Shown one piece after another: positions 7,259 through 42,693 of a DNA stretch of 64,000 nucleotides. The stretch covers positions 186,001 to 250,000 of the forward strand of contig NIVC01000262.1 of NCBI GenBank assembly GCA_002269645.1, given 5' to 3'. Source of the DNA: Macrostomum lignano (taxonomy: Eukaryota). Under the pieces are notes generated by a model. The model was not told the DNA's origin and did no database searches. It worked only from the letters and a program-made list of their open reading frames with translations. Both the position numbers and the translations under genes were made by a program. Each line of letters opens with the position of its first letter. Within the stretch, counting starts at the first letter, position 1.

Positions 7259-10200
7259 TTACTCATCCTCGTCCTCATCAGACTGCGGAGTAGCATCTTC
7301 TTGTGAATGGATTGCTGACGAAAAGTAAATTAACGAAAACACTTTTAATGTCATTCTTTCATCATTTTACTTTTGATTACAAAAAATGTTTTACAAGTCA
7401 CATTATAAAAGTTTTGCCCATGTACAGTATACCAATTATTAACATAACGTAAGTTAAATATACTAATTACTGCTATCAACTCTTACCGATGGGAATCTCG
7501 ACACTAGGCGTGAGAAGGCAAGTTAGAACGTCCCCTTCAGATGGAAAGAGAGACACGTGTTGTCGAATCAACCGCTCGATCCCAGCTGCTCTGAGCATTC
7601 GCAGCGCTGATACAGCACCTACGGAATGAGCAATTTCCGCACGAGTCCGCAGCAGTGCGTCGGCAAAAAAAATTGAAGCACGTCGAACTTCGTGGCGAAC
7701 CAAATTGGATTCTTCGCAGATGCGCGCATGAAGCTGCAGCAGCTTTATGCCTTGGCGCTGATGAGACCGATCCGAACAAAAATCTTCATTGGAAGACCAA
7801 ATAGTCTCGAAGCTGATCATGGCAGACGGAGCACATTTCTCATTGTGCTTTTTAATCAGCGCTTCGCTTTCGGCAGTCAGCTTGCTCAGACTTCGGTTCA
7901 AAAGTCGGTTGAGCTTTTGACCAGGTTGCACCGCAGCTTGGCGCAGAAGAAAATTGCGTTCACATGCTAGCTGCTGTAGCTTTGTAAGTGTTTTTGCTCT
8001 AGTGCCGAAGTCTTCAGGATTTTGCTGTTGTACTGACTGCCGTTCAGCCTCTAGCTGCCAACCCTGACAGATCGACAGGAAAGTTTCAGTGTCACCTGCT
8101 AATTGATATTATAAAAGTATAAACTGCTTAGTTACGGAACGATTAGAAACCAAAGAAGTTTGACATAAGTGTACGACATAAAATAAAACGATTTTGAGTT
8201 TGAGTCACAACAAAATTTGACTTCTCACAGTTGATTGCGCTGGTTTTGCAGAAATAGCTAACTTCAGAGTGAAAGCGGGCAAGGCTTTGCTCCTTGACTT
8301 TGGATCGCTTTTGCAACCAATGACCTAAAGAGCATGATAAAATTGACCCATAAATGTCGATAAGGGCTCGATTTCCTTTACTTTAGTAATCAATACAAAT
8401 AAGTTTAAGCTGTTAAAATCACTGACTGATGTTGTTAATGATGTTAAAGTTAACTGAATCGGCCCAGTAGTTGAGAAATTCTCGCCGATTGGTGTGCGTC
8501 ATTTCCTTCAGCTGTGGGCCGAAGCGTCGAGATACAGACCAAAGGCGCTCGCAACTCTCACCGTCTGTAAGCCCTGCGCCGGCTTTGTAGCGTATACCAA
8601 ACTTTGTTTGGCAGGCCTCTTTATGACCATAAGCGTGAAAAGCAGGTATGGCAAAGTCGACCCTGGGGTCACTAAAATGACCGGCCAATTTGCAGCTTAT
8701 ATCGTACGACACGAATAATTTCTGGTCAGGCGGAGCGTCTTTTAAAGCCTGGGTAACTATAGCTTTCGAGTAGGCAAGCCTGAAATAGAAAAATATGGTG
8801 CTTATTTACGAAGTATAACACTGTAAGAGGCCGCAAGCCTGAAAATTTACTAAAAGCTAATTCAAAATGGCTTAAACCCTATAGCCCCACTTATAGCAAC
8901 GAAAAATAAAAAATAGTTTAAGGGATGGGTTTTTAATTATACTGAGGCATCAAATATGTTTAAATTTGCAGATGTACTCTGAATTTATATACCTATTCAG
9001 AGACAATGATGCATGCGCCCTATAACAATTTCAACTTTGGTAACTTTCTAGCATGAATATTTTAAACATACCATCAGTGAATTACCGCTGCTTAAGATTT
9101 TTGTCAAAAAATTACCCAGGCTACACAAATTATTAGGCTAGTAACTGTATTCAAATGTGTAGAAAAATATTATTATTAACACGTTTTAAAAATACCTTTC
9201 ACCAGGAGTGACAATATCTGCGAGGTAGACAATGGAAGAGTGCCGACAAGAGGCAGAAAAAAGGCCAAAAAACATCCAATTTTCGTTGGTCAGATTTCGA
9301 CGTGAGGGCCTGGCCGCGACCTCCCGCAGAAAAGTTCGGACAATGGTTCTGGCTTGGCTCGTTCGGAGCTCCAAGGTCAACATCGACAAAGTACCCGGAT
9401 GCGGTCGGAAGCTCATCTTTTCCAGCCAGTTTACGGTGTTTAAAGCCGAAGCAGCCGTCAAGCATTAAAAAAATTGGCGCGTTGTGGAGTCTTTCACGAC
9501 CGGCTAGGCTGGTTGGAGCCGACTCCTGGTCATAAAATTTTAACATTAGCGAAGTCAAAATAATAGAGCCAAGTCGACATTCATAATTATATGCTTTAGC
9601 TTACATTGCAGCTAAAGCAGGAGGGACACGACGATTTCTGGCCCCATCTAACATCCTGTAATAGCCGGCGAAACGCCCGAAAGCTGCCTGCAGTGTTCAG
9701 CGCGCGGAATAGATCGATCTAAAGCGTAGAACGTATTTTTTTGTTTATTCCGTTTTACGTAGCATACTTTAAATCTATCATAATTCAACTCTAAAATCTT
9801 ATCAAACTTATTTAATTAATTCAATACGTATTAAAATGCATATAGTCTGTAAAACAGAAAAAATTGTAACTGGAATACAAATTAATAATCATTTACTCGT
9901 TTTGGAGAGAAGAGCCACATCGAATCTTTACTGTGCCTCCAAGCATTACACAGGGACGAAAGCGAAGTAGTGCAACGAGAAGAAATACAATCGAGCGCAA
10001 GAAGCAGCCCAAAGTGGACCGCTACCACTTCGCTAACGTTCTCAAAAATTGGTTGCGTCGGCCAGAAACCGTGACAAAGGAGTGTATCGTATACACTAGA
10101 GCAATCACAACTGTCCACTGACAAAGGGACCTCGTTGCCTGAAATTGCGTGTGAGCAAATTATACTTTTATCTAATTTTAACTACGCTATTTACTGACTT

Positions 10201-10806
10201 AAAGAGAAACTTGGCACATAGAAATTAGAAGCACTCTGAAAGACTTACCTTCTTCATCTAGGGCAGTAACTGGACAAGAAACGCTAAGACATTCACAAAC
10301 TTTGCGTCGGGCCAGATGCACTGTCGTCACTAGGGTCTCGAAGTAACAACCCTTAAATAAAGAACAAGTTATTCTTCTTAACAAGCCAAAGCGTAAACTT
10401 TAAACAGCCAATTTACAATATCAATATTGCTATTAAATAATTTGCTACTCTATTTAGCCAAAACTCACATTCCATTTTTTAACTAGATGAGGAGGGTTGT
10501 GAGCATGTGCTTTGGCTAAGCACAGCTCACACGCCTGAAGACAGTGACATTTTTCGCAGCGGAATATGGTACCCGTGATCTTTTTGGCACAAACGCAACA
10601 AGGTTGGGTCATGCTCGCGGACCAGTATGTGGCAAAGCCATCCTCTAGCTTATTCTTTAGGCTAATCCACGCAGCCTCCTCTCGTTCTCGTCGGACATCA
10701 TATCGGCTGGGTCCAGGTGGAGAAAATTCGCTGTCTGCAGCAAGAGGAACGTCTGGATCGGTATCAATGACCATTGGTAATTCCGATTCCGCGTCGTCGG
10801 CATTGA
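7259..10806 (-). pseudogene. KDZ (Kyakuja-Dileera-Zisupton) transposase with N-terminal CxC2/CxC3-like cysteine cluster; 9 exons, 5'-truncated, one 1-nt frameshift
   Basis: Phase-compatible GT-AG exons at ~10806-10469, 10351-10249, 10138-9897, 9718-9605, 9525-9196, 8779-8427, 8324-8229, 8098-7487 and 7314-7259 (TAA). Motifs: CCVC..RCEKC..CELC..H..PPH..KWNGCYF, CDC..LLCHGFWP, CPSC, MLDGCF, SCRH..D..GE, YDISC, AFHAYGH..CQ, GLTDGESCERLWS, RICEE..L..E. One extra T in a homopolymer at ~9267-9272. Confidence 0.88.
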
Positions 10807-10824
10807 CAGATATATATATATAAA

Positions 10825-11193
10825 TTGACAGATATCCATATCAGTTTCTACAGTCTGTTTATTACGACAACATGCGCAATTGTGTGGATCTATATAATTC
10901 TGCGAATAATAAAATTCTTATATGTGCAAAGGACAGGAAGAATTGCACTATCAAAGAAACAAGAAGCGGCTATACAGCAGCACACAGATGTGGTTCCAAA
11001 CTTGCCAACATAAAATTATGTTACTGTTAATCTGACTGGAGTTCAAGCACCACAAGCAGAGACAACCATTCCGATACCCCCTAGTGAGAAACAAATAAGG
11101 AAACAGCATTCGATATTCACCTTGGGGAGTGTTATGAAATCCATAATAACGTTACCGGTTGTGACACCATAAGGACGAAGAGGGGTACATACC
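10825..11193 (+). pseudogene. env: Env C-terminal transmembrane remnant plus linker, in frame with the protease
   Basis: FYSLFITTTCAIVWIYIILRIIKFLYV resembles FLFSSACIVWIYLALLILVKVV of the 30220-44158 element. Same frame as pol at 11194, with two TAA stops in between. Confidence 0.6.
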
Positions 11194-14100
11194 TTGATCG
11201 ATACAGGAGCGACGCTGACTGTGATCAGTAAAAGATTGGCCGACGCATTAAAAATAACGTGGAACAGGAGTGATATAATTGCAGTAGGAGTGGGAAATTC
11301 CCAGCTTCAGTTCATAGGAAGAGGTACAATTCACTTAGAGATAGGAGGAAAACAGCATATGGTCGAAGTTCAGATCATCAAAGAAATGAATCCAAGCTAT
11401 GACATAATACTGGGAGTAAACCTTCTAAAGAATATTCCTCCAGTCCAAATAGATTACGGAAACAGGAAGATAGTGATCCATAAATACGAATACCCGATGG
11501 TAGGGTCAGTCGAACAACAGGAATCACACGAAGTGGCACTCCTCGAGAATATTAGAATTCCTGCGCATAGTGTGATGAAAGTACCAGTCAAAATTTTGGC
11601 ACAAGTGGATCGAGGAACTTTATGGATCGAACCGAATGAATTCAATGCTGAAAGAAATGGATACGAAATGTGGCCAGTTTTGGTGAACCACAAGGTAGAG
11701 CATGATCAAATGGTTCTTTCCATAATGAATCATCGCCAAGAAGAAATTCAGCTGGTTAGAGGAACGAAGCTTGGTCGAACAAGGGACTTGGTGGAGCAAA
11801 CGGCACAGCACGATTATATCTGTACAGAAGAAAAGGAGAGGCTAACCCCAGAAGAAAAATGGAATCTGATAGAAAAAGGCGAAGATTTGAATCAGCAACA
11901 GACAGAAGAACTGCATAGACTTATATTGGAATACTCTGACGTGTTTTCCGGACATGATTCGGATATTGGGAAATGGACAGGACCAAGCGTCAAATTGGAA
12001 GTTAAACCAGGCCAAGGAATAATCAATCGGAGACCCTATCCTTTGCCAATGAAGCTAGAATCTGCATATGACGATGAGATCGCTAAATTGCTCAAGGCAA
12101 AGGTAATCGAACCGTCGGACTCCTGTTTTTCATCGCCAACGCTTCTTGTGAAAAGGAAAGATGGCCGCTTCAGATTTATAGTTGACTTTCGACTAGTAAA
12201 TCGCATGCTCAGGCAACCTGCTCAGAGTCTTCCAAAAATCCAGGACATGATGAGCCGACTACAGAACACGAAGTATTTTTGTGTTTTTGACATTAAGGAT
12301 GCATTCTTTAATATTGGATTGGATGAGGATAGTCGACATCTAACCGCCTTCACGACGTATACAGGTTCGCAATATCAATTTACGCGCCTACCACAAGGAT
12401 TAAATGTTAGTCCGATATATATGTCAAAGGTGACAAATATGTTGGTTGCCGGTCTCAAAAATACTATCGGATACGTTGATGATCTACTGCTTACAGCGAG
12501 CACGTTCGACGAGATGTATAAAGCTTTAAAAGATTTGTTCACGCGACTGCGCAGTTTGGGACTGAAACTATCAGCTAAGAAGTCTGCAATTGCCAAGGAC
12601 AAAGTGCCGTATTTAGGCTTTGTGCTAAGTAAATCTGGCATCGCGATGCAGCAGGGCCTAAGGACAAAAATAATTGACTTTCCCACACCAAGAACGAAAA
12701 ACAGTTGCAAAGATTCTTGGGAGCTGCGACATTTTACCGCAGACATGTGAAAAATTTTAGCATGATTTCGGCTCCATTATATCAGCTTCTGCGAAAGAAA
12801 TCACAGCCAAAGAAATTCACTTGGACAGAAAAGTGTCAAGAGGCTTTTGATCGTCTGAAGGGATGTTTACAAGAAGACGTCGTGTTAGCTTTTCCAGACG
12901 TAAGAAAAGAATATAAACTAGTAACAGATGCATCAGATGTCGCATTGGGAGCAGTTTTGACGCAAAAGGATGATGAAGGAAGAGAGAGAGTTGTATCCTA
13001 TTATTCCAAGACATTACAATCGGCAGAAACTCGGTATTCAGTCACCGAGAGGGAACTACTGGCAGTTGTTTCAGCAGTAAAATTCTTTCACAGGCTACTC
13101 TTTGGAGCTCGATTTACGGTGCAAGTCGATCACAAGCCGTTGCTGACGATAATAAAAGATAGAGGTATTATGGAAACAAACTCACGAGTAACGAGATCAG
13201 TTCTGTTTCTTTCTGAATACCAGATGAAGATAACTTACTGTCCAGGAAGCTCGACGAAGCATGCAATTGCTGATTATTTAAGCCGACTTACACCAGCAGA
13301 CGTAGACGAAATCAACTTAATACATCCTGTTCCATCGATACAGAAGATACAGCAAGAACAGAGGAAAGACTCCTCTCTGAGCAAATTGATTAAGGTGATG
13401 GAGGGTGGAGACTTACCGAATGGGAAATCGAAAGAGGATAGATTTATCAGGAAGAATATTCATCAGTACAGGATGGAAGGAAACACGCTGTATCGGGAAA
13501 GCATTACTGGAGTTCAATTGGTTGTTCCAAAAGTGTATCAGCTCGCACTGTTACGACATTATCATGAGGATAAACTATCAGGACATCTCGGATGGCAGAA
13601 ATGTTAGAGCGCATGGCGCGACATTACTATTGGAATTCAATGCGGCAGGACATGCAGAAGTACGTAAGAAGTTGTCACACATGTTTGAGTACAAAGCGGT
13701 CGGGGAATTATAAAATTCCATTCAAGGCTCAGATCCAAGGGGAGCCTTGGGATACGATGTCAATGGATATCATTGGAAAGCTCGTAACGTCAGAAGTTGA
13801 AGGACATGAATTTAATTACATATTGACAGTGCAGGATTGCTTCTCAAAATTTGCTTTTGCAATTCCGATTCGAAAACCAACAACGGAAGTGCTTGTAAAC
13901 AAATTGTTCAGTCATATCTTTGCCACCTTCGAAATTCCAAAAAGAATAACAACAGACAATGGAAGCTACTTCACTAGTGCTCAGATGAAAGAAATGAAGG
14001 TGATGATTGGCTGTGAGATCGTCTATACAAGCTATTACACTCCGCATGCGAATGCAGTCGAACTTTACAACAAACTTTTAAAGAATGTTCTGACCACATA

Positions 14101-14746
14101 TATTCATGAAACACAGACGGAATGGGCAAGATACGTGCCAACGGCGACTTTAGCCCTGAACATAAGCTATAATAAAAATCTTCGAACTTCCCCATATGAG
14201 CTCATTTTTGGCCATGCATACAAGACCCCCACCGAAAGAGTTCTAAAGGAACAGGTGTCTGTTTATGACGAAGCCCCAAGTTATGTAAAGAAGCTAGCTA
14301 GTTCCTTGAAATTGAGTTGGGATGTTGCAGGCAATTTTCTACTTCAAGAGCGTCTCAAACAAAGTGAGCAAGCGAACAAAGGAAGAAAAGATCATAAACT
14401 GTCTGAAGGAGACATCGTATATTTGGAAAAACCTGTGAAGGACGGAAAATTCGACACAAATTATGAAGGCCCCTTTACCGTCAGGAAAGTGATAGGCGAT
14501 TCCACAGTTGCAATTCAAAGACCGGAAAATGAACAGAACGAGGAAGCTAGAACAGTAAACGCCAATAGGTTGAAGAGACTATTGTCAAGCCCACCAATAG
14601 CAGTTCAACCATTCTCTGAAGAAACAAATGGCAACACAACACATGATGCGCATAAAATCAGATTGCACAAATCCAACGCCACGCAGACAGAAGTAACAGA
14701 GGAATCAGCTTGTAAGAGATTCACTTTGCGTCCACGCAAGAAGTAG
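11194..14746 (+). pseudogene. pol: Gypsy pol (protease, RT, RNase H, integrase) with two frameshifts
   Basis: IDTGAT protease; RFIVDFR, LPQG, YVDD RT; LVTDAS..LGAVL, ERELLA, VDHKPL RNase H; H..GH/CHTC zinc finger, MDIIG, TDNG, ANAVE, YEGPF integrase. Frame changes at ~12710 and ~13600. Confidence 0.95.
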
Positions 14747-14863
14747 AACCATGAATATCCTGAACGACTTTGAGCGCCGAGCATGGATCTACCATAGGAT
14801 CCACTTCTTTCAATGATTCTCCCCCCCCTACTGCCGGGTTATAAGTAAAGAGTAATACCCATC

Positions 14864-15127
14864 TTGGAAGATATCCGAACGGAAGCACGTAGACTATACG
14901 AACCGGGAGTTTCTGAAGTAGAATTCAGAGAGCCGCCACCGACACGGCCGATTGATGTATACAAGACGGAGCTCCGCAATCTCGCTGACGACATGTACGA
15001 TGACGAATATCGCGAGGGACGCATTATTTGGGAGCTGATAGTTATCTGCTGCACCAAACTACTTTCTCTCCTAAGAAACGAGGGTAATGCGAATACTACC
15101 GAAGAGGACAGCTCAGAGGACAACTGA
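14864..15127 (+). CDS. Small acidic ORF between pol and the putative 3' LTR, function unknown
   Basis: 87-aa ORF just downstream of the pol stop; no motif recognised. Confidence 0.3.
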   Translation: MEDIRTEARRLYEPGVSEVEFREPPPTRPIDVYKTELRNLADDMYDDEYREGRIIWELIVICCTKLLSLLRNEGNANTTEEDSSEDN

Positions 15128-15347
15128 AGCTCAAGTTGAGTCGGACAACATAAATCGAAGATCGCAGATGGTTTTGAGGTGAGATTGAACGAGCTACATC
15201 GCTATATCCAGAATGATAAAAGCTTTACGAGATTAAAATCATTCGCTCATACTTACAGCTATTTGCTTTCATACTAGTCTCAATGATTTCTTCATCTCCA
15301 TATTTTACTAAATGCAAATGTGGGGACCACATTTTGAAAAAGGGTAA

Positions 15348-16102
15348 GTAATATAAGGATTCAATTTCATATGCATGTAAGCCTTAGGGACTATTTAGGG
15401 ACTATTTTAGGAAGTAGTATTAGGGACTAAATTAGGCAATAATTAGAGAATTGCATTGTTATCAGAGCGTGGTGGAGTGTAGCAGTTGTGGACAGCTGCA
15501 CTCTTACAAAAAGCCACAAGTGCTTGATGACGGCATTGCAAAGGGCGAGTGCAGGCCGCCCTAAAAGTCTGCTTCCACTTTAGAGGGGTTGTATGCTTTA
15601 TGTGGGGCGGGGTTCAATTACATTTTTAACAGAGACATTTCAGAATTCGCACGAGAAAGGGGAACCGTGAGAATCGGCCGGAATTGCGCGGTGGCTGGAA
15701 GACGTGGGAAATGATAACGCAGACAGTTTCACAGGGACTTCATCGGGGAAATTTACTATAAATAAGCGAGGGGTTAAATGCTGAAAAACTTTACCTTTTT
15801 CTCACTCTCTTTTCACTCTCTTTTACACGCCTTGTATTAACTTTTGGATTGCTTAATAGTTTGCAAATCACGACGACCGCTTCTGCAGACACCTGTGACC
15901 GGAGGGTAAGACTGAGCACTGCCATGACTATAGATTTATGAATAGTAGCGTATCGGTCTCAGACCAGGTAGATAGGCGTAATTTATATATATAAATATAA
16001 TAGATTAATAGGAGTATTTGAGTAGCTTAGTTATATCGTAGTGTCTCAGACTTATTCTCCCTGCTTGTAGCTCGCTTATTTGCTTATTTACTTATTAATA
16101 CA
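15348..16102 (+). repeat. Putative 3' LTR of the truncated Gypsy element
   Basis: Follows GAAAAAGGG. Imperfect terminal inverted ends (GTAATATAAG ... CTTATTAATACA) and an internal TATAAATA. No second copy is present to confirm the boundaries. Confidence 0.45.
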
Positions 16103-19100
16103 AACATTGAAAATGCAGTAGTAAATATAAATATATGGTTGATCGGTAAATAACATCCAAGCATATTCTACCTCGTTTGAGTTACTATTAATCATATGTA
16201 AGGTTCTTAGTTTGCGGCCAACTAGGAAACTTATATTTGGCGACCACGCTAAAAGGTTATTTAGAGGGACCTTGCCAGGATAGTCTTGATAGCTGCCCAA
16301 TTATTATGTCTGGCGCATAATTCAGCAAAAGCTGACACAGCACCTAGGTTTATTATTGAATTATTGAATTATTTATAATTTGGACATGCATGTCATTAAT
16401 TTAGTGGGACAGTGGCCAGTTGACTTTTGAAGTCACATTTTCAGCGCCAGTCAATAAAATATTTGTTGAATTTTTCGGCCACAGAAACTTTATATTAAAG
16501 AGGTACCTCAGAGAGTGGCACACAAGGTGACCACAAATTAGGTGGTAAGGCAATATTTCGCGCGAGCCAAATCCACTGGGGCGGCCACGGGCCAGCGGAT
16601 GCACGATTTCAGCATTTCGTTTGGATGAATGATAATGACTTATTATTGGAATGTGATTGAAACTGCGGCATGGATGAGGGAAGGATGAAATGGAGGTAAA
16701 ATTTTATAGAAATAGAACTAAAAAACAAGAACATATTCATAGCGCCGTAACGCTCGCGCAGAAATTTAGGTTTCGCCGTCAGCCGAACATCGATAACATC
16801 TATTAAGCTCGTATTCCCAATAATTATATTTAACACCTGGTGATGCCGAAAGCATTTTCCCCCTATTTTGCCCTCGAGATGCCCTCGTGTATGTAACTTT
16901 TTTGTCTCTGCAACATCTTAAAGAGGTAGATTTTGTTTTTTAATTCTTGAAATGAAATGCGGAAGGTTTCGATTGTCCTGCAGTCCGGCAAAATGAGACC
17001 AGGAGAAATGCGACAACCGATTGTCAGATTTTTTCGTATTACGAGTAGTTTTGCTTCGTAGCTGATCTTCTAGAGCAGAATTTTACCAGAGAGGTGGAGA
17101 GAAGCGGGTAGGTCGTGGGATTTAGCGAATTTTACTAATTATTTTGGGCAATTTTTGTTAAATTTAATTCTCGTTGCTCTCTTGCTCACAGCAATTGTGT
17201 GCCAATTACACGGTCAAACTTTTTTCTCTTATTCTTTCAAGATCTTTAAATTTTGGGCGTACATGTAAATTTTAGAAGACGAAGCTTTTTATTGTACTAA
17301 TTATTTTAATAAGCGTTAGGCAAAATAAAGGCGTAAAACCCCGATTTGGGATTCAGTGCGTGAAGCACCAAAGTGGACGAATCAGACGTGTAGTCTCCTC
17401 TCGTTGGAAAAGTATTGAAGACTTTGGACAGGAAGGGGAAAAGTCGTGAAGACTAGTAGGTAGGGAGAAATGTTGGGTAGAGGGGAGGATTTTCCTCAGG
17501 CAAAATCGTACACATTAGAAATTCGATCTTAAGTATTGATATTGAATGAAAAAAAAACCATGAATGTGTAGAATAGAGCCCACCGCTGGACAACCTTGAT
17601 CCCCGCGGTAACGGTGTGATTTCGGATGTACGAGTCAATTTCAGTGTCTTCAGGGCACTCATTGCTGCCATGCAGGGGCATTTCTCGGAATTTCTCGACA
17701 TAAAGGGCAGAAATTGAAGGCTCCATTTACATTTACAACAACCACAACAGGTAGCTATTTTACAGGTAGCAACAGGTAGCTTTTTACAACAGGTAGCTGT
17801 AACAGGTAGGATTTTGAGTCCTGCCTGTACCTTCTGCTCAAGTCGGATAACAAATAAGTGAACTCGAAGCACGGTTTTTCTGGGCCCAGGCTGCTGCGGC
17901 CTACAGCCCAGCCGAGGCAATGGCCATGCCTTTAGGCCCGCGAATGCGGGCGAGAGAAAAGTGAAGCGAGCGCCTTCACTGTCTCTCCTTTTATTTAAAA
18001 CACAGCCGAACAGGCGCGTGGGAACGTTAAACACACAGAACAAAATGCAAATTACGCAGCAAGTTTTAGGTGCAGTCCTTCGCAAATATGACTGCATTCT
18101 ATGCAGCTCATACCCGTAACACAATTAGACGTCCCCGTGAGGATGCAAATACGTCTCTTGGGGACGTATAATTCTAAGCCGCAAAAGTAGATAAAAGAAA
18201 GCCAGAGACACGCATAGTTCTTAAAAATCACTGGAAAATGGGAAAATATGGCTTGTTTTGTAGTAAAACATCAAGGCTAAGAATTTTTTATGAGTAATGT
18301 ATGCATTATATACGTATCGTTTCGTATTTTTGGGACGAAAGAAACGAGAGGGAGAAAGTTTTTTTAATATGAATAATTTTGAATCAATATCATTTTTACT
18401 TATACCCAACTAGCTGTTCATTGTAATAAGCAAATTTACCATAATAATATATAATACATTCAGCTAGAATTGTTTTAACTAGTAAATTTAAACTCACAAA
18501 TATAATGTGACAGCGCGCGCACATGCACATTCATTCATTGTTCAGCGCTGATGCGTCTAGACTTAGTGGACCACATCAATTTCAAATTATTTCTACGCAT
18601 CCTGTATAATATGAGATTTTAGTGTGTGCAGTAAACATATGTTTTCCTTACTAATGTTCGTAAGCACTAATAATTGAGTACGTTTATAAATAAATATAAT
18701 TCTATAGACATGACAAAAATTGGGAGCCCAATCAAGTATATACCAAATAATCAGGCGCTGTAAATTTTTGTATGTCTTTTTGCAATAAACTACCATGGAT
18801 TTGTAATCTGATTATTTATGATGTGTGTAGTGATATATTAGTGCCATATTTATTTTGCTTAATATTTGTTTGGTACTTAATTGCTTTATCTAGAGTACCA
18901 TAGCTTATGTGTATCTCATGCCTGATATGATTTAGTAGTTAATCAACATTTCATGTGTAATTGAATAGTGCTCAAAATCATGGAATATCTCGATTTTTAT
19001 TGAGTAATTTGCCAAATTTACACAAGAGTTAAACCCACTGTGATGGCTCATTAGAATTAGTTTTTACTTTTTCCTCATTTGAGCTTTAAAAGTTGCATGC

Positions 19101-30219: not shown

Positions 30220-30833
30220 TGTAGAGAACAGTAAGTTATAACAAAACGCACTACTTAAAGTAATATTCTAACTAAATCAATTTAAACTCGCAATCTATTT
30301 TTAGAATGAGTCATGATGAGTCTTATCTATTTTTAGAAATTCTATTTTAGAATGAGTCACATACAAACAGAAGTGACTCAGAGCCCTACGTAGGACCGAC
30401 GTTTATTTGATCAAAAAACCGGTTCTCGTGAGTTTTATTTGCTTAATTCCATATCTGGTAATGCTCAAACATGCATGACCGCTTAATCAAACATTTTTGA
30501 CTATGTAAATACCCAATCCCAAACCGGTTTTTCTCCAAAATTTTGCTATAAATATAAGTGAAAATTCAAGTCAAAAATTCAGACTCGGAGCGGTCTCTAA
30601 GAAGACACTGAAGAAATAAGAAGACCAATCTCTGAGGGACCATACCTGTTCAATTGATAAAAGTCAAGGACTCCCGGAGGTACTGAGTCACCTAAGCCAA
30701 ACCAAGAAGCCTACAAGCCACTAAAGGATCCGCTGCAGTAAGTTATTTGAACTAGTAAATACCTAGGCACTTGTTCCCCAGTGTCTAGAAGTGGGAGTTT
30801 CTGAGTGACTGATCACCACTCTTAAACTCTTCA
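30220..30833 (+). repeat. 5' LTR
   Basis: TGTAGAGAAC...CTCTTCA. About 4 differences from the 3' LTR by manual comparison. Four TGA(G/C)TCA sites and a TATAAATA. Confidence 0.96.
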
Positions 30834-30835: not shown

Positions 30836-30853
30836 TGGTGATCTCGCCCAGGC
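30836..30853 (+). promoter_or_regulatory. Primer-binding site, tRNA-Val-like
   Basis: TGGTGATCTCGCCCAGGC lies 2 nt after the LTR. Its complement ...CCTGGGCGAGATCACCA resembles the 3' end of eukaryotic tRNA-Val as I recall it. Confidence 0.7.
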
Positions 30854-31217
30854 TCAAGCGCTGCCAGGCTCAGGCGCTGCCAGGCTAGATCGCTGAAAGC
30901 ACTTTGACACAAAGTCCTTTGCGCAAATTTTACTGAACTTTTTACCGAACCGCCATTGTTTGCATAGAGACCCTTTGATTCTTCGCGCACCGTTTTATAC
31001 TTTGTTAAATTTGCGAATATCCTATCTCGATTTCTTTCTTCGGTAAAGGCAATACAGAATTTTTTTTGCCCTCGTGTCCATTCTCCTTTCTTTCCTTAAG
31101 TAAATAAGAGCTTGCACACACACACACCACACTTGTTCGCCACTTCGAAAGTCCAATCTGGAAAACCCTTTAAAAATTGATCCAGATCTGGTCCTCTTGC
31201 CGTTCCCATTCGAAAAC

Positions 31218-32635
31218 ATGGCTCGAAGAAACCCTACAGTGCATCGCGATGTCAAGGAAACTGTTGGAATGTATACCATAGATAAGGATTTTAACACCTT
31301 CATTGAACACTTCGACCTTGTAACTCGCGAATACGGACTACAAAATCCAGAAAAGGCACTTCTTCCTCCACTGCTAGAAGGTACTGCTCGAGAAATTTAT
31401 GGCAAACTAAATGCCGCGGCACAGCAAGACTACCATACTTTAGTTACACAACTGAGAGCACAATTCGCCAGATGTGGAACCAATCGATCTGTGCTTCTAC
31501 ACAAACTTCATAACCGAAAAATGAGTCCGACGGAATCCTTCCTTACTTTAGTCGATGACGTTCGCAAAATTATTAAAGCGTTGCACCAGCCACCACCACC
31601 GAACCCAGGAGCTCAGCCTATCGGACCAGCAGAACTAGCTGCACAAGAAAGACAACGCCTTGCTGACCAAGAACAAAGCCTAATCCTCCATGTCATTAAT
31701 AATGCTCAACCTTCGCTGCGAGACTGGTTGTTAAGAGAAACCATAGAGACAGGAACAATTAATTCGTTGCGGCATGCAATGGGAAGCAAGTACCCCACTC
31801 CTGACTTCTCGTAGTAGTGATACGACACAATTGGCAGAACAATTGAGCAAACTCATGCAGCAGTACCAAACTTCTGCAATCATGCCACAGTGACAGATAC
31901 GCTCCGCCACCCACTTGTTACACCTGTGGAAGAATTGGTCATTACGCCAGAGATTGCCGATCACGTGGCAATCCAAGACAATATAACGACAACAGAAGAA
32001 AAAATTGGACTCGTCCTCAAAATCGCAATTGGAACCCACCACAGAATAGACAAGGAAATGCCTTGGTACCTTATCGACAACAAAGAAATCCTCCCCCTCC
32101 AAGACAGCCGACTCAGGTCCGCAGACAATATGCTCAAGCTATTGAACCGGAATACACTCAAGTCATCGAACCAGAGTTTAAGATAGAGGATCTTATGCCA
32201 GACTTCACAATCAATGTCCTCGAAGAGCTTGAAAAACAAAAGGATAACACACGCAGCGAAAGTAGCTGCATGATGGGTTCCCTATTTGAAGAAGATTCAC
32301 CAATCTCTACCTCTTCTGAAGCACGCCCACTCTTCAGAGAAAATAAAAGACAACAACAAGCTGCCTCTAAGCAACAAAGCACATTATTTAAACTTCCGAC
32401 GATGGATAATTTTTCGGAAACTCACCGAGATGACAATTTCCAGGATCGTAAAGAAATGACAACACGTGAAGAAGACAGAGACCCAGCAACTTCTCAAAAC
32501 ATCTTTGAAGAAAGCGTTGACATGTTGCAGGTCCTAGTCGACGATATAGACCTGTCAGAAACACCTCCAACACAGGAACCAGACTATGAAAATATTGTCT
32601 CCCCTAGTCCAGTCCACGAAAAAATGGAAACATGA
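31218..32635 (+). pseudogene. gag: Gag (capsid-like domain, CCHC zinc knuckle, low-complexity tail), frameshifted
   Basis: LEGTAREIY..L...DY..L..QLRAQF and TESF capsid-type motifs. CYTCGRIGHYARDC knuckle at 31916-31957, in a shifted frame. Confidence 0.88.
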
Positions 32636-32978
32636 CAAGGCCACGAACACACAATCTAACCATTCGACACATGAAAAGTTCGTACAGACGGAGGATGACA
32701 CATATGTTTCAATGAACCTAGACTATGAAAGCGAATATGATGAACCGATAACAATAATGGAACCGGTTAACACTCCAACTGATGAGAATACACATCTTAC
32801 CGATATATCAAAATCAACCAACTTTATGCGTCCGATGTTGCAATCGCAGCCACCCACACCATTACCATGTTCCAACAAATGGCACTTTTCGACTCGCCTT
32901 ACTCCTCCGCCGTATCCTGAAGACAATCATGACAAGATTGAAGACACCCCACCAGTACCCACAAGAAGAAGGAAAAAA

Positions 32979-34248
32979 CATCCGCTACTGCAATGCTTCC
33001 TCACGATCTTGCTGATGACGATTGTTCCCACAGTACTGCCATCTTCTCTTCCCATGATCTGTCCTACTGATGGAGACATCCAGCCAGTCATTTACAAAAT
33101 TCCTACGGAAATCAAATGCAGTTACTTTAAGACAAACTAAACCAAGCCACTACCACTAACTATTGAAATATACAAAGCAAATACAAAGAAGCATCGACAA
33201 ATGGGAATTGTGTGCTTCCGAGAAAAGGATGAAATTGAAAAGGTTTGGCTGGTACAATGGAACCGAATCAGGTATTGGCAAACTTCGATGATGGTATCAC
33301 AAGAAGAATGCCTTCGGTGGAATCAAACTCTGTTTTCCGAAGATGGTCAATTAAAACTTCATGAGACGTCCGCCAGCGGAGCGCAACGATTCCGCACAAA
33401 AAATGTAGCTGATGGAAGATATATCCATTATCATCAATCACGATGGCCTACATACTCAGTCTACAATAGCTACCTCATCCGAAATGTCTTATTCTACCAC
33501 AATCCATTTGACAACATGGAATCCTTACAGCTACCCCTCGACCAGTGTCACTACAGCTCTGGATATTGTGCTACCCCTAACTACAACAAAGAAGAAGCTC
33601 AAAATTTACCCTTAGCACCGATTTATTTCCATGATTATCGATACCAAATTGAATATAGATCGGATTCCCGATATGAGGAGCCTAGCTGAACCCGCAAATA
33701 TTTCATTGCATGGGAAGTTAAAACTGAAATTGACTGCAAGCTGGAAAAATATCACATTGTTCAAGGGAAACTGCTATCTAACACCTTCCTTGCCGACTCA
33801 GGAGATTTGGCTCTTACATTTCCAAAGCAACCAAGCTACACACACTTGAAATGTAAAAACAAGGACGAGCAACTAATCCTCTCCGACCAAGAAATACCAA
33901 TCGCGCTTAAGGATATGGATAAGAATGTTTTCCTGAAGGTAGTAAATGGAACCTATCAGAGAGAAGATGTCATAGAACGACATAAGCGAGACCTACCTAA
34001 GCCTTCTCTAGTATCAGCACGACTTCTGGCAGCAAAACTAGCCGCCATGGAACATAAGCTACACAAGCAACTGAACTATCTGCATCGATCCATGGTCAAA
34101 CTAACGTACCGAATGCACGAAACCAGCCTAAATTACGCAAGACAGAACTATTATGCCAATCCCACGACGACCTTTAGGAAAATCACAGGTATTGAAGATG
34201 TCTTGGCAATTCCAGTTTACGGATATTTGCTAATCTATAAATGTACAC
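32979..34248 (+). pseudogene. env: Envelope glycoprotein, N-terminal part (class III fusogen, gB/chuvirus-G-like)
   Basis: Hydrophobic signal-like stretch at 32979-33044; Cys-rich ectodomain (EECLRW, DQCHYSSGYC, W....DCKL, SDQ); furin-like RHKR at 33978-33989; ANPTTTFRKITGIEDVLA..YGYLLIYKC. One frame, with in-frame stops at 33138 and 33687. Confidence 0.8.
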
Positions 34249-37200
34249 TAAGGGTGATCGAAAATATTTTTTTTCGATTTCTGACTTCTTTGTCTGATAG
34301 AGAGTTGTGAAATTATATGCATAAACACTAGCTATCATTATTTTTTCAAAATATTTTCATTTACCCCCTCCACACTCATCCCAAAGATGGCACCCCCAAA
34401 AATGACACCCAAAAATCGAAAATCAAGAATATCTCGAAAACGGTTAGTCTTACGACCTAAAAATGTATTACTAACAGATAGAAATAGGGCTATTTCCTAT
34501 CGATTGACGCCTATTACAGGTTCATATGTCATTCTGATCCCCTTCTACAGAAATATTGTCAATTTTCCTATCTTTAACATATGACTAACACAGAAAAAAA
34601 TGTTCTGGCCCAGTTTGGGATAAAAAATCGCTACTTTTGTCGGTGTTTCATCTTAATATGCCATAGCATATTGATTTTGTCGCATTTTACTTTAAATAAC
34701 ATCATAAATCGACTACGTGGCAAAGTGCACAATGTGCATCTGGCCATAGAATAAACTCGTTATACAGGTTAAGACTGTCTGATAGCTGATTCACTAAAAA
34801 TATTATTGAAGTCTTTGCCACTGCTTGCCATTGACGATAAAGCTCTTTGATTGCTAAATGCGCAATGCTTAGGTCTCAAGCCGAATATCCATTTTATGGA
34901 AGATCTCAGCAGCTCGATGAAGCTAACTGCAGTCAGTTGCCCACTGGCCTGGATGTTATGAGGCACTTGATGTTTTTGCGAGAGCAGGTAAGTTTATTGT
35001 TTTATTCTGTTGCATTTTTCTTGCTCTTTCATCAATGCGAGCAAATTGAATTTGAAATTATTCTTTTCAATCCACTTTCAGAAATCCAGAGGCTGCAGCA
35101 ACACAAATGAGGAATGCAGAGAAAGTGCTGTTGTAGTGCTTAGTATCTGGCGCAAGGCCAGCATTCCTACTGTTGCCTCTGTTCTGTCATTGGGGGCCAG
35201 AATACGGAATTTTTACGACAAGGGCCAAGACCTAAAAAAGATCCCAAGCTCTCGAGTCAATAATCGCTCTGTGCAGAAACGACTCAAGGATTATGAGCGA
35301 ACTCTCTGCAGAATCTTTGACATTGCTGCATGCCAGTGCTCAGATTTGAGGAAGTGCACATGCGAGAAGGGGAAGAAAATCCCAGTCCACGAATGGCAGT
35401 TCATGCGCGATCAGCGAAAGCAAAGGCAAATGCACATCGGAGCAGTGGATGCAGCAGAAACGCAGCAGCTGCAAAAGCGTCAAATGTCGCATAGCAACAT
35501 CCCAAAGCCGGCAGAAGATCACGAGCAATACGCTGTGCAGTTTGTAGATTCAGAATCCGATTGTGATGATGATATGGACTGTGATTTTCAGGCTTGCAGC
35601 GGCAGTGCTCAGAGCTCGTCAACTCAGGGGGCTCTGCCTACATTGCCCACAGTCGCCAAAATTGCTGACCGGTTCGCTCTGAGTGACGCATCAGTAGCTG
35701 CCGTTTGCTCTGCAGTGACCCAGGATTTGCAGATTCCTGACTGCGTCATTGACAGAAGCAAGATTCGTAGAGAGAGAAGTAAGCTGCGTAGTGATGCTAA
35801 TTTCCAAGCGTATTCGCGATCTCCGAAATCACTCTACTTTGATGGCAGGAAAGATAGAACCTGCGTTCATGGTGCAGCTGCAATCACAGAGGAGCATGTT
35901 GTGATGGTGGAGGAGCCAGGCTCCCAATTTATTGGTCACGTGACACCAGCTTCACCATCAGCTCGAGATACTTGTGATAGCATGCTTGAGTACTTTAATA
36001 GCAAGAGCATTCCATTAGATGAACTAGTTGTAGGTGAGTAACACTTGAAAATTGCAATCTGATATGCTAGAAATTATGCTCGTTTTACATTATTGCATAC
36101 CTTGTATCAAATTTCCTGCATCAAGCAGCATTTATATGCACTTTTGTATTGCAGTTGGATGTGACAGTACTCGCGTTAATACTGGCTGCCGTGGTGGTAT
36201 CATCCGTCTTCTTGAAGTGGCAATTGGTCGAACCATGCAGGTGGCTGTGTGCATGCTTCACCTCAATGAACTGCCTCTGAGACACTTACTTCAGTTCTAT
36301 GGTTGCTGCACCACTGGCGCACAGACTCTGAGTAGTGAGATCGGTCAGCAATTGGGAAACTGTCAGCTGAAATCTCCTGCTGATTTCCCAGCGATTAGTA
36401 ACCCAAATTTTCCCATCGTACCTCAAGATGTGGTGCAGGATTTGTCCACTGACCAGCAGTATTTGCTGTCGATGTGCAAGAGCGTGATTTCCGGAAGCAT
36501 CAGCGCAGAACTCGCTGCTCGCACTCCTGGCCCATTGAATCACAGCAGATGGCTCACGACTGCAAACCGGTTGCTAAGGCTGTATGTCAGTAAGAGCAAA
36601 CCTGATGAATGCTTGCTCAGATTGTGCAGTTTCGTCATTCGCGTTTACGCTCCATGCTGGTTTAGCATCAAATCACACGCTGCTATTCACGAAGGATCGA
36701 ATCATTTTTTGAAAATGATGAATCTGTGCAGATTGAACCTGACCGCAGCTGAGTGGAGCGCAGTATTTCCTGTGTTGCAAAATGGAGCCTATTTTGCCCA
36801 CTGTGAAAATGTGCTGATTGCAATGCTGGCCAGTGAGCAGGTCGCTGCTAGAAAAGAAGCGTTTCATGTCATCGAAGACATCCGGCAGCGGAGCAAGCAT
36901 TCGCCCGCATCTCAGCGCAGTTTCAAAGTTCCTCAGTTGAAAGGAAACGAGGAAACTTTGCCTGATTTGCTGAAAGCGAACCAAGACTTAACTGAGCCAC
37001 CACTCACTCGCAACCATTCACTTGCTCAGATCAGGCAGCTGGCTCGACAATCGCCCATACACTGGGATTATCCTTGCCACTCACAAGGAACTGAGCGCAT
37101 GATTCGTGCAGTTACTGAAGCCTCGCTGCGAGTGTGTGGTGCAGATTTGCGTGAAGCATTTGTTCGAGTGAGGCAGCAGAGTAGACAGGAAATGCCGCGC

Positions 37201-37792
37201 TTTCACAGCAAGAAGGACTTTTTTCAGTCCTAGATTAATCGCATTATCGTGAAGACGTACACTTGCAGGTTTAGTATCTATGTCATACTAATATGATTAA
37301 GTATACTGTACTGTTGCTTTTATTTCTGCTATTTTAATATAATTTGTTCCGTGCATTGCTTTCGAAAAAATTTTAGAATATTATAATAATAAAGCAGCGT
37401 TAAAGTAGCGATTTTTTATCCCAAACTGGGCCAGAACATTTTTTTCTGTGTTAGTCATATGTTAAAGATAGGAAAATTGACAATATTTCTGTAGAAGGGG
37501 ATCAGAATGACATATGAACCTGTAATAGGCGTCAATCGATAGGAAATAGCCATATTTCTATCTGTTAGTAATACATTTTTAGGTCGTAAGACTAACCGTT
37601 TTCGAGATATTCTTGATTTTCGATTTTTGGGTGTCATTTTTGGGGGTGCCATCTTTGGGATGAGTGTGGAGGGGGTAAATGAAAATATTTTGAAAAAAAT
37701 AATGATAGCTAGTGTTTATGCATATAATTTCACAACTCTCTATCAGACAAAGAAGTCAGAAATCGAAAAAAAAATATTTTCGATCACCCTTA
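34249..37792 (+). mobile_element. hAT-like (possibly hATm-type) DNA transposon, 3544 bp, inserted in env
   Basis: ~390-bp near-perfect TIRs starting TAAGGGTGATCG (34249-34637 and 37402-37792). 9-bp TSD AATGTACAC at 34240-34248 and 37793-37801. Confidence 0.92.
34865..37233 (+). CDS. Transposase, 3 exons, 717 aa, intact
   Basis: Exons 34865-34987, 35082-36033 and 36155-37233, with GT-AG introns in compatible phases. Motifs YFDGRKD, GCDSTRVNTG, CMLHLNELPLRH, HSRWLTTANR, CHSQGTER (DDE with CxxH and RW). Confidence 0.88.
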
Positions 37793-37801
37793 AATGTACA
37801 C

Positions 37802-38406
37802 CGATCAACCACTTTAACATCTTGCCATCAAATACTACAACAACCTGCTACGACAAACCTCCAATCGAGGCCTTTTACAAGGGAAGGCGCATCCGAGGAT
37901 TTTTGGACACTGTCCACAATATTATTGTTGGAACCGCCATTCCAAGACCATGTACAAACTCAGCCAACTATTTCAACTTAAACGATCTACTACACCAAAT
38001 TTCGTCGGCAGGCGATATTAAAAACATTTCAAACTCGCAAGTTATTGTTGACGAGACATACGAAATGACGGACCTCCAAGTAAAATTCAATAAAACAACA
38101 TACAAACCCTTTGGAGATATTAAACTAGACGAAATCACCCCAGGATGGACTATCAACGATTTCCTGCAGGTTTTTATTTCACAACGGCAAGTACTAACAA
38201 AACTGTTCACGGAACGACAGCAACGAGATGCAGATCGACCTACATCTCCAATAGGAATGACTATGCACAATGCCATTCAATCGTTTTGGTCAAATAGCTT
38301 TCTGGACCTAATACAAGGACGAGGAAGTCTATACCAAGGTTTTCTTTTCTCCAGCGCTTGCATTGTATGGATCTACTTAGCGCTACTCATTCTTGTCAAA
38401 GTAGTC
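37802..38406 (+). pseudogene. env: Envelope glycoprotein, C-terminal part with transmembrane helix
   Basis: After removing the insertion the frame reads YKCT|PINHFNILPSNTTTTCYDKPPIEAFYKGRRIRGFLDTVHNIIVGTAIPRPC, matching the gB-type C..CY..P....G.L...N.I......C pattern. TM at 38338-38406. Confidence 0.8.
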
Positions 38407-38649
38407 CGATGCGCAGCAAGAAATTGTCCACAAACTCGAGGCATCTTTCAAATAATTAAACAAACAGACACTACCACTACAGGAGAAGAACCAACCGAAG
38501 AGACACCTATGCAAGTTCAAGAAATTCGATCAGAACCTACAGCACCAGAAACCTCAAACATTTATCCAAAAATCGATTTCAAGCCAGCAATTCCTCCGCC
38601 AATGTCACCTCCACTACCAACCGACCCAAAATGGCCAGCCAACTACGTC

Positions 38650-41600
38650 TGTACTCTCCAAGCCAATATGGGAAGAGCAATGGCTCAAGTACTTGTCAAC
38701 AACAGGCCCAGCAAAGCACTGCTTGATTCTGGAAGCTCCATCACTGTCATTACTAAGAGACTATATGGCAAACTACAACTTCGAATGCGACCATCATCCA
38801 TCGCTGTTGCTGGAGCAGGTGGACATGCGCTTAATATCCTTGGACAAGTTGGGATTATGCTCAAACTGGCAAATAAACAACTCCCTGTTCAAGCATTTGT
38901 TATCGACCACCTTCCAAGTCAAGATGTTATCATTGGAATTGACACATTCCAAAAACTGAATCTACCCTTGACATTTGATTTTAACAAACAGACATTCAAA
39001 CTAGACAACGTAGAACACCCATTGGTCAGCCAAGTTCATTTACAACCTAAAGTTCATCTCCGACAAGATGTATTCATACAGCCTGAAAGCACTTGTTGGG
39101 TTAAGGCTTATCTAGTAAATAACGAAGACGTCGAAGAAGCTATGATTTTCGAACCAAGAAAGAAACTACTAACAACAAAGGAAGTTCTAATTCCAACGGC
39201 ATTGGTCCTGATCACATCAGAAAAAGTTATTCCGGTACAGATTGTCAACCCTCACCAACATCCCGTTAAGATCTACGCAGGAACATGCATGGGACACCTC
39301 AACACACAAGCCTCCGTCATGCTGATTCAACATACAAAACCAACAAGGATGTCAAAGCAACAATTCTTACAACAAATTGATCTCTCGCAAAGTCCCATTA
39401 CGGAAGGACAAAAAACACAGGTCAGAGATCTACTTTGGAAGTACAATGACGTCTTTTGTCATCATGATTACGACATTGGTCGCGCTCGCGACATCAAGCA
39501 GAAAATCGAACTGCTACCCCACCAGGAACCCATCCAATGCAAACCATACCCGGTAGCAAAACATCTGCAACAACATTTTGATGAAATCATCGAAAAAATG
39601 CTCAAGGCCGGAATCATCAAACGAACAGTCTCAGCATATTCATCACCGTGTCTACTAGTTGAAAAAAAGGAAACAAATGAAAGACGACTTGTCTGTGACT
39701 TTCGAGTCCTAAATAAATACATCCCCACAGATCAACAAAGTCTACCAAAGATTTCGGAACTATTGGCACGACTGAATACAGCTACTCTCTTCACCGTATT
39801 TGATCTACGACATGGCTTTTGGCAAATTGAACTTGAAGAAGAATCGAAACAATATACAGCATTCAAGACCTACAAGGGAGAAGTCTTTGCGTACCAGAGA
39901 AGCCCAATGGGAATTTCCAACTCCCCAGCGACCATGAGCCGCTTAACAGCCTACATGCTAGCGGGATGTACGAATCTATTGCATTATGTGGACGATATTC
40001 TCGCCTTCGGCGATAATTTCGAACAACTACTGAGTGTCATGGAACAAGCTCTCTTTCTACTTCAGAAACAAGGACTAAAACTACAACCTACAAAATGTAA
40101 ATTCTGCAGAGATTCAGTCCGATATCTGGGACATCATGTTTCAGCAAGAGGAATTTCACCCGACCCTAATAATGTCGAAAAGGTCAAGAAGTTCCCCAAG
40201 CCTACGACACTTACAAAACTACAATCATTCCTTGGATTAGCACAGTACTTCCGAAAATTCCTACCTAACTTCGCGCAAACTGCAAAGCCATTATATGAGT
40301 TGTTGAAGTTACCGAAATGGAAGGAAGAAAATTGGAAAACGGAACAGCAAAACAGTTTTGATAAAATTAAACAGCAACTAACCAGCGACGCTCTGCTCAA
40401 ACACCCAGACTTCCAAAAGCCGTTTATTATCGAAACCGATGCATCAGGAAGTGGTTTAGGAGCTGTACTACTACAAGAAACAGATCAGAAAAAGGAAAAA
40501 CCAATTGCCTTTATCAGCCGAGCCCTGCGTCCAAATGAAACAAAATGGTCTGCCACCGAACGTGAATTACTAGCGATTTTATTCGCTCTTCGACAGTTTC
40601 ATTACTACATCTACGGATCACCGCTACCAACCATCATCCGCACAGACCACGCACCGCTGACTCATGTTGTCAAAACAAAAGGACAAACGAATAACAGACT
40701 TATCCGGATGGTCCTCAAAATTCAGGACTATAACTTTCATCTCATCTATAAACCAGGACCTACAAACAAGGCCGCGGATGCGCTATCAAGAGCATATGAA
40801 GTCAATGCTGTCCACCCCATTCCAACCATGATGGATCTATTGAAAGCGCAGCAAGAAGATAATTTCTACAAAGCTGTATACGAAGACACAGAAGAAATGC
40901 AAAAACCGCTCACCAAGATCGAAAAGAAATTTTTACGGAAACAAGGCAATAATCTCATCTTCAGAGAACTAGCACTTTACTGGCTGCACAATAATACCCC
41001 AAGATTGTACCTACCATACAACTATCGCGCTGCAATCCTACATGAACTACACGACACACTCCTAGCCGGACATTTATCTGCCAAGAAAACAATCAACAGA
41101 ATAGCCCAGTTCTATTTCTGGCCAACAATGAATGCAGACATCCGCAATTACTGCCTACAATGCCACTCATGTGCTAAACTACTAAATATCCAAAAAATTT
41201 TCACCTCCACCTACAATCCAAAAGCTAACCTAGTAGAACGATTCCATAGAAATCTACACGAAATGTTGACACACTTCGTCTATAAGCAACCTGAAGATTG
41301 GATCATATACCTGCAGTCAGTGACAATGGCCTACAACAGTGCAGTACACCGTTCAACAGAGAACACACCGTTTTTCCTTATGTTCTCTCGAGACTTTCAG
41401 CCACCAAGCCTACTAGTCCAAAAACTGTTACCTTCTCAGTACGTGGAAACGCCAACAACACTACAAAAGTTTACTTCGCAGCTACACCTGGCATGGCAAA
41501 TCGCGAAACACAATTTAGAAAATCAACAGGCAGTAGTCACCACCAGCAATCATACATCTACTCTACAAGTCAGAGACATCGTTTACCTACATTACCCTGC

Positions 41601-42677: not shown

Positions 42678-42693
42678 TATCTTGCCCACAGAT

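What the first reader, a model, noticed from the sequence alone, without database searches (positions are those of the whole stretch)
10825..11260. A second, divergent Gypsy keeps the same env TM-linker-protease junction
Seen: TTCAIVWIYIILRIIKF precedes the protease in frame, mirroring SSACIVWIYLALLILVKV in the 30220 element. Both integrases also share an atypical AN-[AL]-VE spacing where NG-x-x-ER is usual. The pol proteins are otherwise quite different. Inference: env-before-pol is an old, conserved trait of a clade with at least two families in this genome, not an assembly artefact.
Basis: partly seen in the sequence, partly recalled or inferred. Interest (0 to 1): 0.7.

Follow-up and report, generated by a model that had tools for sequence, protein, structure and literature searches.

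The report
Truncated envelope-before-polymerase Gypsy retrotransposon
This is the broken rear half of a retrovirus-like jumping gene that seems to have carried its envelope gene in front of its enzymes, as its better-preserved neighbour does; that layout is real but already known from several worm-like animals.

Summary
The hydrophobic stretch is real and lies in the protease's reading phase, but two TAA stops (11011, 11170) interrupt the frame. Element A is cut off about 10 codons upstream by a KDZ-transposon fragment, so no ectodomain survives to check. Its best match is the membrane anchor of element B (30220-44158), a decayed LTR-gag-env(gB-like)-PR-RT-RH-IN-LTR provirus. A database protein, P0146, is an intact 2852-aa gag-env-pol ORF colinear with B, so the order is no assembly artefact. 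A, B and P0146 group together in RT (99/95), RNase H (95/82) and integrase (87/93) trees. The layout is published: GAG-ENV-POL elements of nematodes, bryozoans and flatworms (PMC13524379). It is polyphyletic there and here (AU p=0.004). B's primer-binding site matches only the Macrostomum element in that catalogue. The short integrase spacing recurs in unrelated lineages. Verdict: a divergent new family of a known kind; env in A is inferred, not seen. Likely mechanism: one polyprotein crossing the ER membrane twice, leaving Pol as Env's cytoplasmic tail.

The parts
10802..10835 (.). Breakpoint: a 12-nt word duplicated around an AT run; joins the KDZ fragment to element A. Read as a deletion/repair junction (inference).
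   Evidence: Copies at 10802 and 10824; composition changes from A=0.23 (10500-10800) to A=0.365 (10830-11010), like A's pol
7476..10810 (-). KDZ (Kyakuja-Dileera-Zisupton) transposase fragment in several pieces, apparently lacking its own 5' end; not part of the Gypsy element
   Evidence: PF18758 E=2.1e-26 on 8419-8805; the outer limits and the assignment of the neighbouring minus-strand ORFs are by eye
10855..10917 (+). Element A: candidate Env membrane anchor followed by basic residues
   Evidence: KD19 2.19; best match is B's anchor, E=0.005 in a 20-sequence set
10918..11172 (+). Element A: cytoplasmic tail/linker and probable protease N-terminal strands, with TAA stops at 11011 and 11170
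   Evidence: the last ~30 residues resemble the pre-active-site segment of P0135/P0146 by eye
11173..12750 (+). Element A: aspartic protease and reverse transcriptase
   Evidence: PF13975 E=1.3e-9, PF00078 E=6e-30
12678..13607 (+). Element A: connection, RNase H and start of integrase (frame changes near 12700 and 13600)
   Evidence: PF17919 E=1.6e-35
13574..14746 (+). Element A: integrase with the one-residue-short spacing before the catalytic Glu
   Evidence: PF00665 E=2.4e-10
14747..15344 (+). Element A: 3' untranslated region and purine tract; no room for a downstream env (longest stop-free plus-strand run 92 codons)
15345..16103 (+). Element A: putative 3' LTR (single copy, ends uncertain)
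   Evidence: Follows the purine tract; no second copy in the window
30220..30833 (+). Element B: 5' LTR (TG...CA), 4-bp target duplication
   Evidence: 611 of 614 aligned positions identical to the 3' LTR, one gap; same 4-mer on both flanks
30836..30847 (+). Element B: primer-binding site, 2 nt after the LTR
   Evidence: identical to the PBS of Mlig_errantivirus_2, the only element row matched in the 1512-element table
31137..32981 (+). Element B: gag (capsid-like part, CCHC knuckle) and spacer, split over several frames
   Evidence: 63% to P0120 and 33% to P0146; PF00098
32982..34248 (+). Element B: internal signal-like segment and first part of the gB-like ectodomain (two stops; RHKR furin-type motif)
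   Evidence: KD19 2.03; P0146 E=2.4e-28; profile match to PF24664-positive proteins, probability 88.5%, E=2.8e-6
34249..37792 (+). DNA transposon inserted in B's env, with long inverted ends and a 9-bp target duplication (MULE-like by duplication length; label recalled, no Pfam hit)
37793..38397 (+). Element B: remainder of ectodomain and membrane anchor (38341-38397)
   Evidence: P0146 E=8e-19; KD19 2.57
38398..41877 (+). Element B: linker, PR, RT, RH and integrase in the same open frame as the anchor; integrase core internally deleted near 41180
41927..43290 (+). Element B: two Cys-rich RING-like ORFs between pol and the 3' LTR
   Evidence: PF21362 E=5.4e-6, below the curated cut-off, for the second; the two resemble each other, E=1.7e-8
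43544..44158 (+). Element B: 3' LTR

Best explanation
Element A is the decayed 3' half of a Ty3/Gypsy (Metaviridae-type) provirus from the same deep clade as element B. Its ancestors carried a gB-like (class III) envelope between gag and protease in one long frame. A deletion fused it to a KDZ fragment just upstream of the Env anchor; the two stops and two frame changes are later decay. Working model for the intact form (inferred from anatomy, not tested): Gag is made in the cytosol; an internal signal segment sends the ectodomain into the ER, where signal peptidase frees it from Gag; the second hydrophobic helix stops transfer and returns the chain to the cytosol; linker-PR-RT-RH-IN therefore begins as Env's cytoplasmic tail until the element's protease cuts it off. 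Shown: domain order, open frame in B from anchor to integrase, intact single ORFs in relatives, clade membership. Inferred: A's lost ectodomain, topology, cleavage, particle formation.
For: P0146 is one 2852-aa ORF with gag, signal-like segment, ectodomain, anchor, PR, RT, RH and IN, colinear with B. A's best blastp hits among 270 fetched proteins are P0135/P0146 for PR-RT and P0146 for RH and IN (IN 185 bits against 135 for the next). A+B+P0146(+P0135): RT 99/95 with 56 rows, 95/88 with 36 rows, RH 95/82 (bootstrap not fully settled), IN 87/93 (unstarred). Of 106 protease domains with at least 100 residues upstream, 10 have KD19 of 2.1 or more; 8 of these 10 show ectodomain homology (4 hit PF24664; 4 are linked by HMM or blastp). 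A has such a segment and no CCHC knuckle upstream of PR. A has no env after pol. P0146, P0120, P0001, P0251 and P0214 show the signal-like segment, as does B.
Against: No ectodomain sequence of A exists in the window. No member of A's own family was found: best identity among the 150 listed hits was 37%, and 36% among 119. The two stops cluster in the 115 codons before PR against none in the 1190 after (Fisher p=0.008; p=0.04 counting frame changes). A's anchor does not match P0146's (score 22). P0135's ORF stops aligning to P0146 just after the anchor position, so that record does not show the fusion. Two of the 10 hydrophobic-upstream proteins (P0021, P0185) show no ectodomain homology. B's env has no direct Pfam hit, and its single-sequence fold was uninformative (pLDDT 36).
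Confidence: 0.75

Rival explanations
1. A's family belongs to the clade but had already lost most of env, keeping only a short membrane segment before the protease.
For: Nothing upstream survives to exclude it. P0185 has gag, then a hydrophobic segment 116 residues before PR, with no ectodomain homology.
Against: A's segment matches B's C-terminal anchor specifically. A lone anchor of that polarity makes most sense behind an ectodomain (inference).
Confidence: 0.1
2. In A's family env ended naturally at the 11011 stop after a ~30-residue tail, and pol was expressed separately (read-through, splicing or re-initiation): env-before-pol without fusion.
For: Stops cluster upstream of PR (p=0.008). 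P0135's record does not carry the anchor in frame.
Against: The second stop lies 10 codons before the catalytic Asp, inside what aligns by eye with the protease N-terminus of relatives, so at least one stop is decay. B and P0146 are open through the junction.
Confidence: 0.08
3. The A-B anchor similarity is a chance match of two hydrophobic strings, and A's upstream sequence is unrelated to env.
For: Only 23 residues align; block shuffles reach the score in 47 of 3000; no similarity to P0146's anchor.
Against: Right phase, right distance, right clade; best non-self hit of B's anchor in all six frames of the window (41 against 35 for the next); composition continuous with A's pol.
Confidence: 0.06
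4. The env-before-pol order in this window is an assembly chimera.
For: The region is dense in nested and broken repeats.
Against: B has matching LTRs, a target duplication and a PBS; independent records P0146 and P0120 reproduce the order.
Confidence: 0.01

Closest known systems
GAG-ENV-POL HSV/gB-type 'errantiviruses' of Nematoda, Bryozoa and Platyhelminthes (Chary and Hayashi 2026, PMC13524379)
   Same: Ty3/Gypsy pol, env between gag and pol, gB-type ectodomain flanked by two hydrophobic segments. B's env shows by-eye motif correspondence with the bryozoan C2b domain I-II rows more than with the Schmidtea rows. The arrangement is non-monophyletic there and here.
   Different: Both window copies are decayed and would fail that paper's intact-ORF filter. 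The paper's main text has no occurrence of 'polyprotein', 'single ORF', 'fused', 'frameshift' or 'readthrough'. I could not align to their pol sequences.
Platyhelminthes_Rhabditophora_Mlig_errantivirus_2 (Macrostomum lignano; same paper, Supplementary file 1)
   Same: Identical 12-nt PBS, the only matching element among 1512; same 2-nt gap after the LTR; similar span (about 10.6 kb against about 10.4 kb for B without its insertion).
   Different: LTR 864 bp against 614 bp. Its sequence was not seen (no row for it in the Platyhelminthes search of Supplementary file 2), so kinship rests on the PBS alone. A's PBS is lost.
Nematode endogenous retroviruses (NERVs; Sacco et al. 2022, doi 10.1099/jgv.0.001739)
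   Same: Env before pol in a metavirus (as cited in PMC13524379). From recall only, they are described as one continuous gag-env-pro-pol ORF, which would make the fused layout itself already known.
   Different: Paper not held. The one named nematode hit here (P0021, Heterorhabditis) does not group with A/B in RT trees, though it lies near them, weakly (94/56), in the integrase tree.
Drosophila gypsy and canonical errantiviruses
   Same: Ty3/Gypsy PR-RT-RH-IN order with an envelope gene.
   Different: Their env is F-type and lies after pol (PMC13524379); A has no ORF of that size after integrase.

Membership tests
Ty3/Gypsy (Metaviridae-type) LTR retrotransposon | pol order PR-RT-RH-IN | tested here: met
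   Pfam on A and B
Ty3/Gypsy (Metaviridae-type) LTR retrotransposon | Paired LTRs, PBS, target duplication | tested here: inconclusive
   Met for B; A has only a purine tract and one putative LTR
GAG-ENV-POL gB-type errantivirus | gag upstream of env | tested here: inconclusive
   Met for B; region deleted in A
GAG-ENV-POL gB-type errantivirus | gB/class III-like ectodomain between gag and pol | tested here: inconclusive
   B: indirect, via P0146 (HMM E=1.2e-5) and profile match E=2.8e-6; no direct Pfam hit; second env piece only E=0.047. A: absent from the window
GAG-ENV-POL gB-type errantivirus | Membrane anchor between ectodomain and protease | tested here: met
   Hydrophobicity and position in A and B; by hydropathy only, no dedicated TM predictor
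GAG-ENV-POL gB-type errantivirus | No env downstream of pol | tested here: met
   A: longest open run 92 codons; B: only RING-like ORFs
GAG-ENV-POL gB-type errantivirus | Five-domain gB fold and cysteine-bridge class | tested here: inconclusive
   Single-sequence model pLDDT 36; not searched against fold libraries
GAG-ENV-POL gB-type errantivirus | Intact, multi-copy in the genome | not testable with these tools
   Both window copies are broken; the rest of the genome was not available
Nematode NERV clade | RT monophyly with nematode elements | tested here: inconclusive
   Only one named nematode element was in the trees; it is apart in RT and weakly near in IN
One clade of all env-TM-protease elements | Monophyly in RT | tested here: not met
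   13 rows against 23, log-likelihood 67 lower, p-AU 0.004; the group was defined by architecture, but after earlier trees had been seen

The most novel reading that the evidence does not exclude
A, B and P0146 form a separately derived lineage (possibly flatworm-associated) of continuous gag-env-pro-pol elements in which signal peptidase severs Gag from the rest, so Pol can reach a particle only as Env's cytoplasmic tail. Env would then be needed even for replication within a cell, which would explain why the anchor-linker-protease junction recurs in unrelated Gypsy lineages and survives in families only 37% identical in RT.
Probability: 0.3. Interest if true: 0.65.

Novelty: new member of a known kind. 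Interest (0 to 1): 0.32.

Why it matters
It adds a deeply diverged family to a thinly sampled group of envelope-bearing retrotransposons and shows two such families in one genome. The gene order is published. What remains open is how a chain with Env in the middle delivers Gag and Pol to one particle; the intact database ORFs (P0146, P0001, P0251, P0214) are better subjects for that question than these decayed copies.

Tried and rejected
Looking for A's 5' half beyond the KDZ fragment: tblastn with B's and relatives' gag/env, self-blastn and an LTR search found nothing. Looking for A's own family: 119 hits and the best 150 of 64779 hits reached at most 37% identity. B env search gave 1 hit among 1630 candidates; B env-end/linker/protease search gave 0 among 5694. 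Atlas search with one B env piece was below the recognition level and gave only weak RRM-like hits. Single-sequence fold uninformative, so no fold search was run. P0120 had no meaningful PDB sequence hit. No tRNA gene in the window to match the PBS. Integrase spacing rejected as a clade diagnostic: it also appears in P0041/P0107/P0022/P0058, P0049/P0042, P0061, P0062 and P0110, scattered over the tree. Single origin of all env-before-protease elements rejected. My recollection that RING ORFs are described in rotifer LTR elements was not borne out: 0 occurrences in PMC5408684. Branching inside the clade is unresolved: RT and RH tend to join A with P0146/P0135, IN joins B with P0146 (B only 43% filled). 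Names and hosts of the database relatives stayed unknown, and the viral and metagenome contig collections stayed unchecked.

Full report
Observation. The quoted string is at 10867-10917, in the codon phase of the protease (catalytic Asp at 11200). Two TAA codons, at 11011 and 11170, lie between them, so it is in phase but not in an open frame. It is hydrophobic (KD19 2.19) and 109 residues from the Asp; B's counterpart scores 2.57 and is 122 residues away. The two align over 23 residues with 10 identities. The score was reached by 1 of 3000 full shuffles and 47 of 3000 block shuffles, and A's site is the best non-self match to B's anchor in the six frames of the window. Against 12 other pre-protease hydrophobic segments A scores 54 with B and at most 32 with the rest, only 22 with P0146. 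The linkers do not align. The short integrase spacing is real, but 12 of 151 classifiable integrase domains have it (97 unclassified), and the 9 outside this clade are scattered over the tree.

Anatomy of A. PR-RT, RH and IN follow in three frames to 14746. Then come about 600 nt with no open run over 92 codons, a purine tract and a single-copy putative LTR. There is no env after pol. About 10 codons before the anchor the element ends at a duplicated 12-mer (10802, 10824) against a minus-strand KDZ transposase fragment. No gag, env or LTR remnant of A lies elsewhere in the window, so this looks like a deletion junction rather than a clean insertion. The anchor-linker stretch has the A-rich composition of A's pol and no CCHC knuckle.

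Anatomy of B. LTRs at 30220-30833 and 43544-44158 (611 of 614 identical), a 4-bp target duplication and a PBS at 30836. Gag with a CCHC knuckle is followed by a signal-like segment at 32982 and an ectodomain broken by two stops and a 3.5-kb DNA transposon. The anchor at 38341 runs in one open frame through PR, RT, RH and an internally deleted integrase, followed by two RING-like ORFs.

Relatives. Searching with A's PR-RT returned P0146, an uninterrupted 2852-aa ORF with which B's gag, both env pieces and pol are colinear. B's env search returned P0120, with gag and env in one frame, about 60% identical to B. Other single-ORF fusions turned up: P0001, P0215, P0260 and P0270 hit PF24664 (viral fusion glycoprotein) upstream of the protease, and P0215 also hits PF00606 below its cut-off. 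An HMM from those four finds P0146 at E=1.2e-5 but not B directly. A profile of B's first env piece with P0120 and P0146 matches a profile of those four plus P0242 at probability 88.5%, E=2.8e-6; B's second piece gives only E=0.047. The gB-like call for B is therefore indirect; a single-sequence fold did not help. Among 106 protease domains with enough upstream sequence, 10 have a strong hydrophobic segment, starting 97-155 residues before the Asp; 8 of the 10 show ectodomain homology.

Trees. From 179 single-RT proteins I took 98 for a quick tree, then hand-picked subsets for careful trees, dropping several long branches. A, B, P0146 and P0135 form a clade at 99/95 (56 rows) and 95/88 (36 rows). 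RNase H gives 95/82 (40 rows, bootstrap not settled). Integrase gives 87/93 for A, B and P0146 (46 rows). The trees are unrooted and branches are long (RT identity A-B 37%, A-P0146 40%, B-P0146 42%). Internal order conflicts between domains. Forcing all 13 env-anchor-protease rows into one clade is rejected (p-AU 0.004).

Mechanism. B, P0146, P0120, P0001, P0251 and P0214 show a hydrophobic segment before the ectodomain (after a basic run in B, P0120 and P0146), and the complete ones a second segment after it. By analogy with signal-peptidase-processed viral polyproteins (established knowledge), this gives cytosolic Gag, lumenal Env and cytosolic PR-RT-RH-IN attached to Env's tail until the protease releases them. 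This is inference. A's stops are most simply decay, since the second falls within the apparent protease N-terminus, but their clustering (p=0.008) leaves a natural env stop possible.

Literature. PMC13524379 reports GAG-ENV-POL gB-type elements in Nematoda, Bryozoa and Platyhelminthes and states they are not monophyletic. I saw the abstract, sections 14 and 22, the first parts of sections 5, 6 and 9, keyword passages, and searches or parts of Supplementary files 1, 2, 4 and 5; figures and pol sequences were not visible. B's PBS equals that of the Macrostomum lignano element and of no other row; this hints at kinship and perhaps a flatworm host but is not proof. Sacco et al. 2022 was seen only as a citation; that it describes a continuous gag-env-pro-pol ORF is my recall. 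PMC5408684 was seen as passages only. Seven searches listed no paper, by title or abstract start, on processing of such a polyprotein; subscription journals and bioRxiv supplements are not covered.

Verdict. The finding is a decayed, truncated new family of a published kind, with env inferred for A. Interest 0.32.

Noticed in passing
window 41927-43290: Element B carries two related Cys-rich RING-like ORFs between pol and the 3' LTR; role unknown.
   Followed up: partly
window 34249-37792: A 3.5-kb DNA transposon with inverted ends of about 400 bp and a 9-bp target duplication sits in B's env; its transposase-like ORFs (34992-37233) have no Pfam hit.
   Followed up: partly
window near 41180: B's integrase lacks about 105 core residues without a frame change, although its LTRs are 99.4% identical: a young but non-autonomous copy.
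   Followed up: partly
P0185 residues about 940-1060: A Gypsy ORF with gag, then a signal-like and a Trp-rich segment before the protease and no ectodomain homology; possibly an env-reduced form.
   Followed up: no
P0146 residues about 990-1190: A long Thr/Ser/Pro-rich, mucin-like insert inside the ectodomain, absent from B.
   Followed up: no
window 14873-15124: An 84-codon acidic plus-strand ORF between A's integrase and purine tract; no Pfam hit.
   Followed up: partly
window 44330-48100: Short ORFs without meaningful Pfam hits; the one at 44330-44650 (-) recalls, from memory only, Polinton-type minor capsid ends. A diverged partial match to B's LTR lies at 47441-47630.
   Followed up: no
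window 338-1066, 49892-50374, 52616-54601: Mariner-type transposase, ISXO2/Merlin-like transposase piece and non-LTR RT fragments; the window is almost wholly nested mobile DNA.
   Followed up: partly
window 20899-21537, 27793-29874, 56926-61277: Transposase-like ORFs with no meaningful Pfam hit (superfamilies not determined).
   Followed up: no
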